Source of the DNA: a virus | DNA: 64,000 nucleotides | Virus record (IMG/VR): IMGVR_UViG_3300008448_000004 | Span: 32,001-96,000 of that record | Direction: 5' to 3' (one strand) | In this document: positions 25,805 to 62,428 of the stretch, piece by piece | Layout of the letters: each line of letters opens with the position of its first letter | How positions within the stretch are numbered: position 1 is the first letter of the stretch | Notes under the pieces: model-generated | Databases searched by the model: none | What the model saw: only the letters and a program-made list of their open reading frames with translations | What the model was told of the DNA's origin: nothing | Position numbers and translations under genes: made by a program

Positions 25805-26242
25805 TGGTGGAGATGACGGGAGTCGAACCCGTGTCTCCGAAAGAGACAATAACACCAACGTTTCACATGCTTAGTACTGCTTTCGGGCCCGTATGCTAAA
25901 CTTAGGCTAGCTGGGTCTGTCTACTGCACCGTAAGGGCTGACCGGTTATGGTCGAATCCACCACCTTGTTTTAATTGACTACAAGGAAAACTACGGCTCG
26001 CAATATGCGTCCGGATGCCGTCTCTATAGCGTACGACTCGCTGTTGTGTTCTGTTCCTAGGCTCTCTACCGCCCGATGCGGACTAGGCTGCTACAGCGTA
26101 GTCGGCGCCTACGAAAGACATTAAGTCTTCGAAGGTCATAGTTGACATTTCGTCATTTGTTGTTTAGTATCTTCTAAGGCAGTATACTCAAATGCCTGCA
26201 TGTGGTATTACCTCAACATTCGGATCAATACCAAACATCCCC
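25805..26242 (-). ncRNA. ssrA: tmRNA
   Basis: 5' GGGGATG pairs with 3' CATCTCC-ACCA giving G3.U70; T arm CGGGTTCGACTCCCG; internal tag ORF ending ..GADYAVAA* (26083-26154). Confidence 0.95.
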
Positions 26243-54284: not shown

Positions 54285-54314
54285 ATACGCTACTGTTCTT
54301 TGACGTTTTTTATT

Positions 54315-54626: not shown

Positions 54627-54663
54627 AATTTGTTTCTCCTTATATGTCAAAGAACAGTAGCTG

Positions 54664-55771: not shown

Positions 55772-55803
55772 TAAATATAGAATAAAAACTTCAGACTTCC
55801 AAC
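55772..55803 (-). promoter_or_regulatory. Bacteroidota sigma70-type promoter
   Basis: GTTG-N20-TATATTTA. Confidence 0.65.
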
Positions 55804-58656: not shown

Positions 58657-58728
58657 AGCTCCCATCCGGAATCGAACCGAATTATCTTGATTACAAGTCA
58701 AGTGCATCGCCTGCAATGCTTTGGGAGC
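58657..58728 (-). tRNA. tRNA-Thr(TGT)
   Basis: Cloverleaf, loop CTTGTAA. Confidence 0.9.
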
Positions 58729-58734
58729 TGTTAG

Positions 58735-58807
58735 CGCGGATGGTAGGACTCGAACCTACAACCTTCGGTTTTGGAGACCGCAACTCTACCAATTGAGCTA
58801 CACCCAC
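58735..58807 (-). tRNA. tRNA-Trp(CCA)
   Basis: Cloverleaf, loop CTCCAAA, G73. Confidence 0.93.
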
Positions 58808-58811
58808 GTTT

Positions 58812-59315
58812 CTACTTATTCAATATGTCAATGATCTTCTTCTTTATACCAGCTTCTTTCAGACCCTGGTTATCTTTAGTTCTAACAAACTTATCCCTTG
58901 CATCTCCCTTGTCTAATAGGTCTTTTAAGTCTAAGTCGTCTAGAATAACAAACTGTTTTAAATCAAAGTGATTAATGAAATCCAGCACTTCATTTGCTCG
59001 GTTTTTTTCGAGCCAAGAAAAGCTTACAGGTTTATTCTTTGTAACAGATCTTGGCATTTTATTAATACCGTTATGCTTAAAGATTTCAGCTAACTGAACT
59101 AATCCCCAATGGTGCCTCCAATCAGAACTTACTACAATCTCTGCTTCTGTTTCTTCTACTATTTCGTTTAGGATCTTAACGCATTTCTCATCGAAAGGAT
59201 AAGGTACTCCGAGTTCTTTTGCCCATTCGTATTTTTTCCAAAAGTTAACTCTATTCCTCATAAATTGCTCTTCTGTTGCTACTACTCCGTCGATGTCTAA
59301 AAAAATTACTTTCAT
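58812..59315 (-). CDS. HAD-superfamily protein (HAD_SAK, RNA-repair-associated type)
   Basis: IFLDIDGV, IVVSSDWR, FVILDD, FVRT..GL. Confidence 0.85.
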   Translation of the reverse strand: MKVIFLDIDGVVATEEQFMRNRVNFWKKYEWAKELGVPYPFDEKCVKILNEIVEETEAEIVVSSDWRHHWGLVQLAEIFKHNGINKMPRSVTKNKPVSFSWLEKNRANEVLDFINHFDLKQFVILDDLDLKDLLDKGDARDKFVRTKDNQGLKEAGIKKKIIDILNK

Positions 59316-59329
59316 ATACTTCAGTTAAT

Positions 59330-59360
59330 AAAAAAGCCCCAGATTTTTATATCCAGGGCT
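59330..59360 (-). terminator. Attenuator-type intrinsic terminator upstream of the HAD gene
   Basis: AGCCCTGGAT ATAAAA ATCTGGGGCT TTTTT, 15 nt before the ATG. Confidence 0.8.
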
Positions 59361-59387
59361 CTTTGTAAATTCTTATATTGGTAAAAG

Positions 59388-59468
59388 TTATCTTACAATA
59401 CATGCCCTGTTGCTTACTGGTTCTTGCCAGCTAGTCGTGGGGGTTGTGTATGTGTTAGATATCTTCAT
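59388..59468 (-). CDS. Putative leader peptide (26 aa)
   Basis: MKISNTYTTPTTSWQEPVSNRACIVR*; 3' part can pair with the terminator 5' arm. Confidence 0.6.
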   Translation of the reverse strand: MKISNTYTTPTTSWQEPVSNRACIVR

Positions 59469-59504
59469 ATGATTGTTACTTGTATAAATACACTTGATAA
59501 ATAA

Positions 59505-60375
59505 AAAACGACCTGAGACTACAGTCTTTATGTTAACTCTTTTGCAGCATTATTGATTCTCTGCTTGTCCAGTACCTTTTGAGCACTATGTTAACAATGC
59601 CGGTTGTTAGGTCAACCACCCCTTGAGGTGCTTTTATTGTGGTCTACTCTCTTCTTACTCTAACCGTTCTACCCTGCCGGGCAGATAAGTCCTTGCGGGA
59701 CTACGATCTTTTCATAAGAATCATTATTGGCTTGCGACCTTTAATGGCAATGGACAACCCATTACTGTGTAGGCATCTTTCGACCGCACCTGGCAAGCGC
59801 TTAAGCTTATTATGTTATTGTAATTTTGCAATCCAATGCAAATAAGTTTGACTTGTGGATTATAGAAGTAGTGGCTTGCCCTGAGCCTGCTCAGCTTTTG
59901 GCCGAGTTGATACTCAACTACTCCTTGAGATGTCCCCATCTCGGTTAACTTTAGACTACTTCATTACAACACCTTGGTAGGTAATCGTAAAGGATATTAG
60001 CAGCACCACCTGTTCTACATCTTACCTTTCGGTTTTAAGTACCCTTTCAGTTCTGGGCGTCGCAATAATATGGTTGGATAAACTATATGTCTTGCATGCA
60101 CCCTTCGGGTTAATCTTATTGCTCTTCCGAGCTCAACCAAACGACCCACATCGCTTAGTCTACCAACCACTTTCCCTACAGTGTTACCCTCAGTACTAAA
60201 GGTCAGTAGATATCCCGATTGCATACTCGAGCTCCTTCCGAAAGGAGCCGCAGATCCACTCAGTCAAATGAATCCACTTTATACCGGTTTCCCGGTTTAT
60301 TTAACGACTATATGCCGCCGACTGCTATTTACTACCGATCTTACTCTCGCAAGCGATTTCAGACCTTCGAAGGGA
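59505..60375 (-). ncRNA. Large structured ncRNA, GOLLD-like candidate (~870 nt, ends approximate)
   Basis: No credible ORF; many tetraloop hairpins (ACCGG-GAAA-CCGGT, GCTCCT-TTCG-GAAGGAGC, ACC-GAAA-GGT, GTCCC-GCAA-GGAC); own promoter and boxA; next to a tRNA array. Confidence 0.65.
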
Positions 60376-60382
60376 TAACAGT

Positions 60383-60394
60383 ATGTCAAAGAAC
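60383..60394 (-). promoter_or_regulatory. boxA-like antitermination element
   Basis: GTTCTTTGACAT just downstream of the promoter; also at 54644-54655, and GTTCTTTACAAT before the tmRNA (26245-26256). Confidence 0.6.
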
Positions 60395-60422
60395 TTCTGT
60401 TGTTATCTTCTTATCTATAAAT

Positions 60423-60454
60423 TAAAGATAGCTTCTTTAATTCAGACTAACAAC
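60423..60454 (-). promoter_or_regulatory. Bacteroidota sigma70-type promoter driving the large ncRNA
   Basis: GTTGTTAGTCTGAATTAAAGAAGC TATCTTTA. Confidence 0.8.
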
Positions 60455-60472
60455 TTTTTTTTAATTTTTTTT

Positions 60473-62119
60473 TTAAAAACCCATTCCCATATCCATCATC
60501 CCAGATCCTTCCTTCTTTTCTTCTTTCTTGTTAAAGATTACGGATTCGGTTGTAAGGATCGTACCAGCCACAGAAGCAGCATTCTCGATCGCAATACGCA
60601 CTACCTTGGTCGGATCAAGCAATCCAGCTTCGAAAGCATCGACTACTTTACCAGCTTTGGCATCGTAGGTGCTGTTACTTAATCCGGACTGCATTACTTC
60701 TGTTGCAATTTCATGCCAGTTCTCAATACCTGCGTTAGCAAGGATTCTAACAAAAGGAGCTTTACATGCTCTTAGTAGAATTTGTTTACCGATATCTTCA
60801 CTGTAATCGCTACCAAGAGTAATATTGTCAACAGCTTTATTAACTGCTTTATACAGAGCAATACCTCCGCCTGATACGATTCCTTCATCAAGAGCTGCTC
60901 GGGTAGCAAATAGTGCATCCTCTACTCTATCTTTCTTTTCTTTTATTTCAAGTTCACTATTACCTCCAACTGAGATTACTGCTACACCTCCGACAAGCTT
61001 TCCGAGCCTCTCTTGTAGTTTTTCTTTGTCGTAGAAGGAAGCTGCTTTTTCGATCTGATCTTTAATGTCTAAAGCTCTTTGCTGAATAGCTTCTTTACTT
61101 CCAACTCCATCAACAATTGTTGTTTTTTCTTTTTCAACTGTTACAGTTCTAGCTTTACCTAAATACTGTTCAAGTACATTGGCGTTAATTTTATCTAGCT
61201 TATGTCCTTTATCTTTAGACAGTACTTGACCGCCTGTAATGATTGCTAGATCTTCAAGTGCTAAGGTTCTTCTTTCTCCGAACTCCGGTGCTTTTACTGC
61301 AACACCTCTTACAATACCTCTTGCTTTATTCACAATTAGGGTAGCTAGAGCTTCTCCGTCTATGTCTTCCGCAACAATTAAGAGAGGTTTATTCTCTGCA
61401 TTAGCTTTAGTCATTACAGGGAGTAATTCAGCTGCTGTTGTAATACGGCCGTCGTACATAAAAATATACGCATCTTCAAGAACAGCTTGCATAGTGTTAT
61501 TGTTCGTCACAAAGTAAGGAGATTTGTATCCTCTATCAAATTGCATACCTTCTACTGTCTCTAATTCAGTTTCACCGGTCTTACTCTCCTCGATAGCAAC
61601 TACTCCATCACGTCCAACTTTTTCAAGAGCTGTTGCGATTAAGTTTCCAATCATCTCATCGTTATTACCTGAGATAGTTGCAACTTGTTTAATCTGCTCT
61701 TCGGTATCTAGTTCTTTAGAGACTTCTTTTAGTGCAGCTACAATCTCTTTTACTGCTTTATCTATACCTCTTTTAACTGCAACAGGACTTACTCCCTGGT
61801 TAATTGCTTTCAAACCTTCTTCTACAATAGTTGCGGCAAGGAGAGTAGAAGTTGTTGTACCGTCTCCAGCTTCATTAGCTGACTTGATGGATACTTGTTT
61901 AACAAGTTGAGCACCGATATTTTCAACCTCGTCTTCGATTTGCGAGAAAGCCTTCGCAACAGTAACGCCGTCTTTAGTAACTTTAATTCCATTTACGTTA
62001 TCTTCAATTAATACTGTTCTACCACCAGGTCCTAGTGTTGATGAAACACTGTTGTTTAATTTCTGGATTCCTTTTAGTAGTTTGTTTTTTAATTCAATTC
62101 CAAATAAGCTGTCAACCAT
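60473..62119 (-). CDS. groEL: Chaperonin GroEL
   Basis: TLGPGGR, TKDGVTVA, AGDGTTT, EGMQFDRGY, ERLGKL.GGVAVI, C-terminal MMDMGMG. Confidence 0.97.
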   Translation of the reverse strand: MVDSLFGIELKNKLLKGIQKLNNSVSSTLGPGGRTVLIEDNVNGIKVTKDGVTVAKAFSQIEDEVENIGAQLVKQVSIKSANEAGDGTTTSTLLAATIVEEGLKAINQGVSPVAVKRGIDKAVKEIVAALKEVSKELDTEEQIKQVATISGNNDEMIGNLIATALEKVGRDGVVAIEESKTGETELETVEGMQFDRGYKSPYFVTNNNTMQAVLEDAYIFMYDGRITTAAELLPVMTKANAENKPLLIVAEDIDGEALATLIVNKARGIVRGVAVKAPEFGERRTLALEDLAIITGGQVLSKDKGHKLDKINANVLEQYLGKARTVTVEKEKTTIVDGVGSKEAIQQRALDIKDQIEKAASFYDKEKLQERLGKLVGGVAVISVGGNSELEIKEKKDRVEDALFATRAALDEGIVSGGGIALYKAVNKAVDNITLGSDYSEDIGKQILLRACKAPFVRILANAGIENWHEIATEVMQSGLSNSTYDAKAGKVVDAFEAGLLDPTKVVRIAIENAASVAGTILTTESVIFNKKEEKKEGSGMMDMGMGF

Positions 62120-62131
62120 TTTTTATAAATT

Positions 62132-62428
62132 TTAATTTTCTGAAACAATGCCGATTACTTCTACAGTTTTACAGAGGAAATACTCATCACCTCCTAGTGT
62201 AACTCTCATACTACCTACTTTAGGAATAAGCAATTTGTCACCTACGTCGAACTTTGTTTGAACAAATTGACCGGTTTGAAAGTTATAAAAATCACTATAC
62301 GCGATTACTTCGCCAATAGCTGGTTTTTCTTTTCCTAGATCAGGAATAATAATGTTGCCTGCAAGGATCTCTTCCTCTTCTACAGGCTTGAGCAAAACGT
62401 ATCCGTTTAGCGGTTTTAATACACTCAT
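62132..62428 (-). CDS. groES: Co-chaperonin GroES
   Basis: LKPLNGYVLLKP, GNIIIPD..KEKP..GEV, VGDK. Confidence 0.9.
   Translation of the reverse strand: MSVLKPLNGYVLLKPVEEEEILAGNIIIPDLGKEKPAIGEVIAYSDFYNFQTGQFVQTKFDVGDKLLIPKVGSMRVTLGGDEYFLCKTVEVIGIVSEN

What the first reader, a model, noticed from the sequence alone, without database searches (positions are those of the whole stretch)
59505..60454. ~870-nt highly structured non-coding RNA (GOLLD-like) with its own promoter and rRNA-style boxA
The longest non-coding stretch in the window is packed with GNRA/UNCG-type hairpins (e.g. 60283-60296, 60231-60248, 60024-60033, 59689-59701) and is preceded by a consensus promoter and GTTCTTTGACAT. Size, phage origin and tRNA adjacency match GOLLD RNAs (established; function unknown). 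The family assignment is by resemblance, not by search. boxA suggests it is transcribed like an rRNA.
Basis: partly seen in the sequence, partly recalled or inferred. Interest (0 to 1): 0.75.

Follow-up and report, generated by a model that had tools for sequence, protein, structure and literature searches.

The report
Phage GOLLD RNA with rRNA-style leader
This stretch is a true gene for GOLLD, a known giant cage-forming phage RNA, and it starts with the phage's standard early promoter and the same short boxA signal that its Bacteroidota hosts put in front of their ribosomal RNA genes, which suggests how the RNA is made but not what it does.

Summary
The observation and the family guess hold. 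Rfam's GOLLD model (RF02032) matches window 59925-59510, minus strand, full length, at 260.5 bits (cut-off 150).

- **5' half.** The Rfam model does not cover 60320-59926. It is homologous to about 45 other phage GOLLD loci and folds into about 20 helices. Of 108 predicted pairs, 81 show compensatory changes.
- **Promoter.** 60453-60423 is one of 11 copies of this 181-kb phage's early promoter motif. It is of the Bacteroidota type, not sigma-70 consensus.
- **boxA.** GTTCTTTGACAT (60394-60383) is kept upstream of 43 of 44 related GOLLD genes. Its core GTTCTTTGA equals the word found in 16S leaders (14 of 22) and 16S-23S spacers (21 of 22) of sampled Bacteroidota.
- **Expression.** Metatranscriptome contigs from four freshwater studies match 59511-60268 exactly. 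They do not cover the flanking groEL or HAD genes.

Best reading: host RNA polymerase makes GOLLD early, probably modified by the Nus/boxA complex as on rRNA operons. By homology, the RNA then assembles into a 14-mer cage. Its function is still unknown.

GOLLD itself is known. I found no paper linking GOLLD and boxA. However, this scan has already reported the same boxA leader before GOLLD on at least five other phage genomes.

The parts
60423..60453 (-). Early promoter, Bacteroidota sigma-A type: -33 TTG at 60453-60451 and -7 box TATCTTTA at 60430-60423. The predicted start near 60417 is inferred and not mapped.
   Evidence: It is one of 11 copies of TTGnnnG(T/C)CTGA-N9-14-TAnnTTTA in the 181-kb genome. 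All copies are on the minus strand and the other ten precede ATG starts. A relaxed form of the motif occurs 43 times on the minus strand against 13 +/- 3 in shuffles. Relatives carry TTG/TTTG ... TAnnTTT[GA] at the same place. No sigma-70 site scoring 9 of 12 or better is found here.
60383..60394 (-). boxA-like leader element GTTCTTTGACAT.
   Evidence: GTTCTTT[GA] lies 12-82 nt upstream of the conserved core in 32 of 33 non-redundant homologous loci, against a background of 0.146 per kb. It is also present in 11 of 11 loci of an independently drawn sample. The core GTTCTTTGA is found in Bacteroidota 16S leaders (14 of 22) and 16S-23S spacers (21 of 22). It matches the gamma-proteobacterial consensus GYTCTTTAANA at 10 of 11 positions (PMC5725501).
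60322..60381 (-). Variable leader hairpin closed by CUGUUAU/AUAGCAG. It is optional in the family.
   Evidence: The alignment shows a hairpin of variable length and sequence here in most loci. It is absent in L031, L008, L017, L038, L025 and L046, where boxA lies 12-14 nt from the core.
59926..60320 (-). GOLLD 5' domain, about 20 helices, not covered by the Rfam model.
   Evidence: An nhmmer profile finds full-length homologues in about 45 IMG/VR loci and in LR745206 and LR756502. RNAalifold on 29 sequences gives 108 pairs, 81 with compensatory changes. 97% of cells are paired against 36-46% when partners are slid, and 0 of 500 shuffles reach the observed values.
59510..59925 (-). GOLLD 3' domain (Rfam RF02032, full model).
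   Evidence: 260.5 bits against a gathering score of 150, E 5e-73, model positions 1-416 of 416.
59792..59863 (-). A/U-rich variable linker between the first 3'-domain hairpin and the pseudoknot strand. It corresponds to the disordered internal linker of the solved GOLLD cage.
   Evidence: The Rfam alignment shows an unpaired, poorly conserved region here. This is the conservation minimum, at 59820-59839. In the cryo-EM structure the linker is unresolved and lies inside the cage (PMC12286853).
59782..59791 (-). 5' strand of the Rfam pseudoknot, which is the intermolecular kissing bridge in the solved cage.
   Evidence: It pairs with 59635-59644. The core four pairs, 59785-59782 with 59641-59644, are kept in 26-33 of 33 sequences with many pair types. 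The paper assigns this covarying contact, L20-J13/15, to bridge B7 between chains.
59635..59644 (-). 3' strand of the same pseudoknot or kissing contact.
59503..59526 (-). Terminal hairpin (GAC-UGUAGUCUCAG-GUC) followed by a U run at 59508-59503. This is the likely 3' end.
   Evidence: The Rfam model ends at 59510. A T run follows in most relatives. RNA contigs of two studies stop at 59511 and 59513, which is only a weak hint. The terminator scan does not call this site on the minus strand.

Best explanation
Window 60453-59503, minus strand, is a complete transcription unit for a GOLLD RNA in a 181-kb, T4-like freshwater phage whose signals point to a Bacteroidota host.

Shown:
- The 3' half is a full-length Rfam GOLLD.
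- The 5' half is a conserved, strongly covarying domain shared with about 45 other phage loci.
- RNA identical to the body occurs in lake metatranscriptomes, while the neighbouring genes do not.

Inferred:
1. Host RNA polymerase starts at the phage's standard early promoter, near 60417.
2. About 25 nt into the transcript, the boxA word GUUCUUUGACAU binds host NusB and S10. This converts the polymerase into an rRNA-type Nus complex.
3. That complex would resist Rho on this roughly 900-nt untranslated RNA. It may also tether the 5' end and help co-transcriptional folding.
4. Transcription ends at the U run after the last hairpin.
5. By homology with the solved env-38 GOLLD, the RNA of about 830 nt then assembles into a 14-chain hollow cage. 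The covarying kissing contact that links chains in that structure is kept here.

What the cage does is not known. A role in the phage's translation and tRNA programme is the favoured guess, based only on context.
For: - **GOLLD membership:** RF02032 at 260.5 bits, full model.
- **5' domain:** homology and covariation.
- **Inter-chain kissing contact:** it covaries in 26-33 of 33 sequences, and its role in the cage is described in PMC12286853.
- **Promoter:** it belongs to an 11-copy, strand-specific phage promoter family and is positionally conserved in relatives.
- **boxA in GOLLD loci:** 32 of 33 and 11 of 11 loci carry it.
- **boxA in hosts:** the same word sits in Bacteroidota rrn leaders and spacers.
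- **Host lineage:** the nearest relatives of the phage's TonB-dependent receptor are in Sphingobacteriaceae and other Bacteroidetes MAGs.
- **Expression:** zero-mismatch RNA contigs from four studies cover 59511-60268. There is no cover on groEL or the HAD gene.
- **Published background:** boxA-NusB-S10 nucleates the rrn complex (PMC13753749; PMC3177189). The complex promotes RNA maturation by looping (PMC4807359). Phage T7 uses a boxA behind its early promoters (PMC3709561).
Against: - No start site, strand or Nus binding was measured, and contigs cannot show them.
- No RNA contig covers the leader and boxA (60353 onward). The leader may be trimmed, or it may simply not have assembled.
- This window lacks the small hairpin that precedes boxA in many relatives and in rrn leaders.
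- The leader alone is not unusually structured, z +0.49.
- The RNA is G-rich rather than C-rich, so it is not an obvious Rho target.
- GOLLDs outside this subgroup have no boxA-like word upstream: Acinetobacter phage vB_AciJM_313 and three divergent IMG/VR loci. boxA is therefore not required for GOLLD as such.
- Cage formation is inferred from a relative whose sequence I did not align to this one.
Confidence: 0.62

Rival explanations
1. It is a GOLLD gene with its own promoter, but GTTCTTTGA is not a Nus site here. It would be a conserved processing or 5'-end signal, a second promoter element (it contains TTTG, the core of the Bacteroidota -7 box, and TTGACA), or the binding site of a phage protein.
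For: Binding was not tested. The word contains TTGACA and TTTG. The leader is not covered by RNA contigs, which would fit removal of the leader at or near this word. A second exact copy at 54655-54644 is half of a 16-bp inverted repeat that brackets an ORF between two tRNA-Leu genes, so there it looks like a processing stem.
Against: A better promoter lies 28 nt upstream and belongs to the phage's 11-copy family. No -10 or -7 partner follows TTGACA at the right spacing. The same 9-mer occurs in 16S-23S spacers of 21 of 22 Bacteroidota rrn loci, where a promoter role is unlikely. It matches published boxA consensus sequences in three phyla.
Confidence: 0.2
2. boxA is kept on the abundant mature RNA and acts as a decoy. 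Fourteen boxA copies per cage would soak up host NusB-S10 and depress host rRNA synthesis.
For: GOLLD RNA is far more abundant than its neighbours in metatranscriptomes. In some relatives boxA lies only 12-14 nt from the core and could stay attached. Ribosome binding by GOLLD in pull-downs is mentioned in PMC12286853.
Against: No RNA contig reaches boxA. GOLLDs of other lineages lack boxA. Nothing here bears on NusB levels.
Confidence: 0.07
3. The stretch is not an independent gene. It is the long structured 3' untranslated tail of the groES-groEL message, or the leader of the downstream HAD-tRNA operon.
For: Only about 20 nt and no hairpin terminator separate the groEL stop (60473) from the promoter. 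The HAD gene and five tRNAs follow on the same strand.
Against: RNA contigs cover GOLLD but neither groEL nor the HAD gene. No other GOLLD locus has groEL or groES nearby. The unit carries its own copy of the phage promoter and a conserved U run at its end.
Confidence: 0.06

Closest known systems
GOLLD RNA (Rfam RF02032; Weinberg et al. 2009; cryo-EM structure of env-38 GOLLD, Kretsch et al. 2025, PMC12286853)
   Same: The 3' domain matches the full model. Overall size is about 830 nt. It has a two-domain layout, with a 5' domain of about 395-455 nt, a 3' domain of 416 nt, and an unconserved linker about 60-130 nt into the 3' half. The covarying kissing contact is present. It lies in a phage near a tRNA island.
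   Different: Nothing places it outside the family. The published descriptions I could read call the 5' region 'less conserved'. Here the 5' domain is conserved and covaries across about 45 loci, so this is one well-defined subgroup. I did not align it to env-38 itself.
Bacterial rrn operon leader and spacer: promoter, boxB hairpin, boxA, boxC; the Nus/SuhB/S4 antitermination complex (PMC3177189, PMC4807359, PMC13753749)
   Same: A host-type promoter is followed within a few tens of nt by the phylum's rrn boxA word and then by a long, untranslated, highly structured RNA. Many relatives also have a small GNRA hairpin just before boxA, as reported for B. subtilis rrn operons.
   Different: The cargo is a phage RNA, not rRNA. 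In this window there is a single promoter and no boxB-like hairpin. No boxC was identified. Factor binding was not tested.
boxA outside rRNA: suhB and CRISPR leaders in gamma-proteobacteria (PMC5725501; cited in PMC13753749), and the boxA behind phage T7 early promoters (PMC3709561)
   Same: A boxA is placed early in a transcript that is poorly translated or untranslated. It is used by a phage on host-polymerase early transcripts without lambda N.
   Different: Those cases are in Proteobacteria and concern mRNAs or CRISPR arrays. This one is in Bacteroidota phages and leads a giant structured RNA.
ROOL and OLE RNAs (other large ornate RNAs that form RNA-only assemblies)
   Same: They are large, ornate RNAs, and ROOL is phage- or prophage-associated and forms a cage.
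   Different: No Rfam hit to either was found in the window at gathering thresholds. Their sequences and folds are unrelated.

Membership tests
GOLLD RNA (RF02032) | Covariance-model score at or above Rfam's gathering score, over the whole model | tested here: met
   260.5 bits against 150, E 5e-73, model 1-416/416, not truncated.
GOLLD RNA (RF02032) | Conserved pseudoknot or kissing contact of the 3' domain, supported by covariation | tested here: met
   In the window 7 of 10 positions pair. The core four pairs are kept in 26-33 of 33 relatives with 4-6 standard pair types each.
GOLLD RNA (RF02032) | Total length near or above 800 nt, with a structured 5' domain upstream of the conserved 3' domain | tested here: met
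   The core 60320-59510 is 811 nt, or about 870 nt with the leader hairpin. The 5' domain has 108 pairs, 81 with compensatory changes.
GOLLD RNA (RF02032) | Phage or prophage location, often near tRNA genes | tested here: met
   The record is a 180,934-base virus record rated complete. Ten tRNAs lie within 5.3 kb downstream. Relatives often have a tRNA directly before or after the RNA.
GOLLD RNA (RF02032) | Made as a discrete, stable RNA | tested here: inconclusive
   Exact RNA contigs from four metatranscriptome studies cover 59511-60268 and not the flanks. Contigs cannot give ends, strand or size.
GOLLD RNA (RF02032) | Self-assembly into a D7 14-mer cage | not testable with these tools
   Known only for env-38 GOLLD (PMC12286853) and inferred here by homology.
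rrn-type boxA / Nus antitermination leader | Sequence equals the boxA word of the host lineage's own rRNA operons | tested here: met
   GTTCTTTGA lies 78-210 nt before 16S in 14 of 22 sampled Bacteroidota rrn loci and 322-559 nt after 16S in 21 of 22. This includes the Sphingobacteriaceae genome nearest to a phage gene.
rrn-type boxA / Nus antitermination leader | Lies in the transcript, shortly downstream of a promoter and upstream of the long RNA | tested here: inconclusive
   The promoter is predicted 28 nt upstream and is well supported by repetition and conservation. The start site was not mapped, and no RNA contig covers the leader.
rrn-type boxA / Nus antitermination leader | Accompanying boxB-like hairpin and boxC | tested here: not met
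   There is no convincing hairpin between promoter and boxA in this window. Many relatives do have a GNRA hairpin there. boxC was not identified.
rrn-type boxA / Nus antitermination leader | Binding of NusB-S10, and resistance to Rho or improved folding | not testable with these tools
   This needs biochemistry or genetics.

The most novel reading that the evidence does not exclude
In the Bacteroidota-phage branch of GOLLD, the gene is built as a miniature rRNA operon, and the host's Nus/boxA machinery is needed to make and correctly fold the cage-forming RNA. In that case rRNA-type transcription would be a general route for producing giant structured RNAs. Nus or boxA mutants would then give the first genetic handle on GOLLD biogenesis.
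Probability: 0.5. Interest if true: 0.6.

Novelty: new member of a known kind. Interest (0 to 1): 0.45.

Why it matters
GOLLD has been known since 2009 and is now known to build RNA-only cages larger than a ribosome, yet its role remains open. This locus adds three things.

- **A clean natural example.** It has a defined promoter, leader, body and end, and the exact RNA is present in lake metatranscriptomes.
- **A better-defined 5' half.** In this subgroup the 5' half is as constrained as the 3' half. That gives a full-length alignment for modelling.
- **A testable idea about synthesis.** The rRNA-type boxA is kept in 43 of 44 relatives. This suggests the RNA is made by the same modified polymerase that makes rRNA, which can be checked with standard reporter and binding assays.

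None of this reveals the function. The GOLLD identification itself is routine.

Tried and rejected
- **Sigma-70 reading of the promoter.** The scan gives no site at 60395-60472, so I dropped the E. coli reading in favour of the Bacteroidota type.
- **TTGACA inside boxA as a -35 box.** No -10 follows at 16-18 nt.
- **Coding potential.** Only ORFs of 71 aa or fewer occur, on both strands. Covariation argues for RNA.
- **boxA as a universal GOLLD feature.** Rejected. Acinetobacter phage vB_AciJM_313 GOLLD (207 bits) sits inside a tRNA array with no GYTCTTTRA in 5 kb. Three divergent IMG/VR GOLLDs have none within 800 nt. LR756502 also lacks it.
- **A link between GOLLD and the chaperonin genes.** No groEL or groES lies near any other GOLLD locus.
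- **blastn against cultured and GenBank phages.** This gave only three partial hits.
- **Uncovered parts in the RNA runs.** The leader at 60353 onward, groEL and the HAD gene have no cover. This is absence of contigs only and does not prove absence of RNA. Short pieces at 58743-58805 are tRNA fragments of other organisms.
- **Alignment to the solved env-38 sequence.** I did not attempt this, because that sequence is not among the sequences I may hand to the tools.
- **Literature.** No paper in the searchable library holds both GOLLD (the RNA) and boxA. The 2009 discovery paper was not among the searchable texts.

Full report
**What is there**

An Rfam scan of the whole window gives one large-RNA hit. 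GOLLD (RF02032) matches 59925-59510 on the minus strand at 260.5 bits, against a gathering score of 150. The E-value is 5e-73 and the match covers model positions 1-416 of 416. The same hit is the only one in the whole 180,934-base virus record, which is rated complete. The Rfam model covers only the conserved 3' half of GOLLD.

The stretch has only short ORFs of 71 aa or fewer, on both strands. 59316-60382 is the longest stretch in the window without an ORF of 80 aa or more.

**The 5' half**

blastn found the segment 60319-60109 at 74% and 68% identity in two huge uncultured phages, LR745206 and LR756502. In both, a full Rfam GOLLD 3' domain follows. Two short conserved words from this alignment retrieved 53 IMG/VR loci. 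An nhmmer profile showed that about 40 of them carry both halves in full.

- In a 33-sequence alignment, conservation is high and continuous from 60319 to about 59505 and drops on both sides.
- RNAalifold on 29 distinct 5' domains predicts 108 pairs in about 20 helices. Of these, 81 have compensatory double changes.
- 97% of cells are paired, against 36-46% when the partners are slid by 1-3 columns. No shuffle out of 500 reaches the observed values.
- The whole RNA folds 3.7 sd better than shuffles.

The 5' half is therefore a conserved structured domain. The gene is a full GOLLD of about 811 nt (core), or about 870 nt with a variable leader hairpin at 60381-60322.

**Link to the solved structure**

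Kretsch et al. 2025 (PMC12286853) show that env-38 GOLLD has these features:

- It is 833 nt long, with a 5' domain at 1-420 and a 3' domain at 421-833.
- A disordered linker occupies positions 497-538.
- It forms a D7 14-mer cage.
- The covarying L20-J13/15 contact is an intermolecular bridge.

The window's layout has the same proportions. In my alignment the core of that contact, 59785-59782 with 59641-59644, is paired in 26-33 of 33 sequences with many pair types. Cage formation here is an inference from homology. I did not align env-38 itself.

**Promoter**

The sigma-70 scan finds nothing between groEL and the RNA. The sequence at 60453-60423 is TTGTTAGTCTGAATTAAAGAAGCTATCTTTA.

- It is one of 11 copies of TTGnnnG(T/C)CTGA-N9-14-TAnnTTTA in the genome. 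All are on the minus strand and none on the plus strand. The other ten are each followed by an ATG within a few tens of bases.
- A relaxed form of the motif is three-fold enriched over shuffles.
- The form, TTG at -33 and TAnnTTT(G/A) at -7, is the Bacteroidota housekeeping type. That assignment rests on established knowledge.
- The rRNA promoters of a Sphingobacteriaceae genome read TTG-N19-TACCTTTG.
- Relatives have TTTG/TTG ... TAnnTTT[GA] at the equivalent place.

GOLLD therefore carries the phage's standard early promoter.

**boxA**

GTTCTTTGACAT lies at 60394-60383, 28 nt after the -7 box.

- *In GOLLD loci.* In 32 of 33 non-redundant GOLLD loci, GTTCTTT[GA] lies 12-82 nt before the conserved core. 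The background over 0.95 Mb of the same loci is 0.146 per kb. I drew a second sample with a 3'-domain pattern, so it is independent of the 5' words. It gave 11 more loci of this subgroup with enough upstream sequence, and all have the word 442-523 nt before the 3' domain.
- *In host rRNA operons.* The phage's TonB-dependent receptor finds its nearest relatives in Sphingobacteriaceae and other Bacteroidetes MAGs. In the complete Sphingobacteriaceae chromosome, GTTCTTTGA lies 120 nt before 16S and again 504 nt after it. In a sample of the phylum it is in the 16S leader in 14 of 22 rrn loci and in the 16S-23S spacer in 21 of 22. Leader plus spacer is the classical boxA arrangement.
- *Against published consensus sequences.* The word matches the gamma-proteobacterial consensus GYTCTTTAANA at 10 of 11 positions (PMC5725501). 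It also resembles the B. subtilis consensus AUGAUCUUUGAAA (PMC13753749).

Binding of NusB-S10 was not tested.

boxA is not universal in GOLLD. The Acinetobacter phage vB_AciJM_313 GOLLD (207 bits) sits inside a tRNA array without it. Three divergent IMG/VR GOLLDs and LR756502 also lack it.

**Expression**

Six metatranscriptome runs from four studies hold about half of the sampled words of 59300-60600. I laid one run from each study on 58700-61300 and found zero-mismatch RNA contigs at these positions:

| Run | Exact cover |
|---|---|
| X15 | 59511-60192 |
| X17 | 59562-60192 |
| X18 | 59513-60146 |
| X19 | 59598-60268 |

- No contig covers groEL, the leader beyond 60353, or the HAD gene and its leader at 58874-59482.
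- DNA carry-over would cover the flanks too. The RNA is therefore present well above its neighbours.
- Contigs of two studies end at 59511 and 59513, next to the Rfam 3' end and the U run at 59508-59503. This is a weak hint at the 3' end.
- Contigs give no strand and no true ends. The missing cover on the leader is not evidence of processing.

**Mechanism**

The reading I favour, at about 0.6, has three steps:

1. Host polymerase transcribes the gene early from the phage promoter.
2. NusB-S10 loads on boxA, giving an rrn-type complex.
3. The complex protects this long untranslated RNA from Rho, or tethers the 5' end and aids folding. Looping and folding is the role proposed for rRNA in PMC4807359.

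Phage T7 offers a precedent for a boxA behind early host-polymerase promoters (PMC3709561).

Several points count against this reading. The window has no boxB-like hairpin. The RNA is G-rich rather than C-rich. The leader is not covered by RNA contigs.

The rivals are listed in their own section: a processing or promoter role for the word, a NusB-S10 decoy, and a mere groEL tail or operon leader.

**Novelty**

GOLLD is a known family, and this is a new member. I found no paper in the searchable library that connects GOLLD with boxA or antitermination.

The scan's own notes show the same 'rRNA-style boxA leader before phage GOLLD' on at least five other phage genomes. I reached the result before reading those notes, and they agree with it. 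They are not independent evidence.

Noticed in passing
window 54289-54304 and 54646-54661: A perfect 16-nt inverted repeat (GCTACTGTTCTTTGAC / GTCAAAGAACAGTAGC) brackets a small membrane-protein-like ORF of about 103-118 aa between tRNA-Leu(UAG) and tRNA-Leu(UAA). It contains the second exact copy of the boxA word. It looks like a long-range processing stem that would excise the mRNA from the tRNA precursor.
   Followed up: partly
whole genome; window copies at 2969?, 3358, 3531, 9468, 10048, 10227, 17821, 28397, 55802, 60453 (minus strand): There is a highly conserved phage promoter family, aaaaagTTGCTAGTCTGAAA-N-TATCTTTAgttatatcaatcaa. Eleven strict copies exist, all on the minus strand. The copy at 55802 precedes the odd tRNA-like gene region, and the copy at 60453 precedes GOLLD.
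   Followed up: partly
window 58812-59315 (-): The gene just downstream of GOLLD encodes a HAD_SAK_2 domain protein (PF18143, 'HAD domain in Swiss Army Knife RNA repair proteins', 91.8 bits). It is followed by five tRNA genes.
   Followed up: no
window 60473-62428 (-): The phage encodes GroEL (Cpn60, 208.7 bits) and GroES (Cpn10, 57.9 bits) directly upstream of GOLLD. No other GOLLD locus examined has them nearby.
   Followed up: partly
window 25805-26242 (-): A phage-borne tmRNA gene (Rfam RF00023, 65 bits, full model). ARAGORN did not call it.
   Followed up: no
L064 2366-2749 (PX050566.1, about 81344-81727, complement): Acinetobacter phage vB_AciJM_313 has an unannotated GOLLD (207 bits) in the 985-nt gap between tRNA-Gln and tRNA-Pro of its 20-tRNA array. 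It has no boxA-like word.
   Followed up: partly
L002 3440-3845 (LR745206.1) and L003 3421-3827 (LR756502.1): Two huge uncultured phages of 635 and 642 kb carry full GOLLDs (287 and 275 bits). One lies directly after a tRNA-Met and the other directly before a tRNA-like gene.
   Followed up: partly
window 60092-60265: RNA contig depth is 5-30 times higher here than on the rest of GOLLD in all four runs, and several short contigs carry 2-5 mismatches. This is most likely the pooled signal of many related GOLLDs sharing this conserved segment.
   Followed up: no
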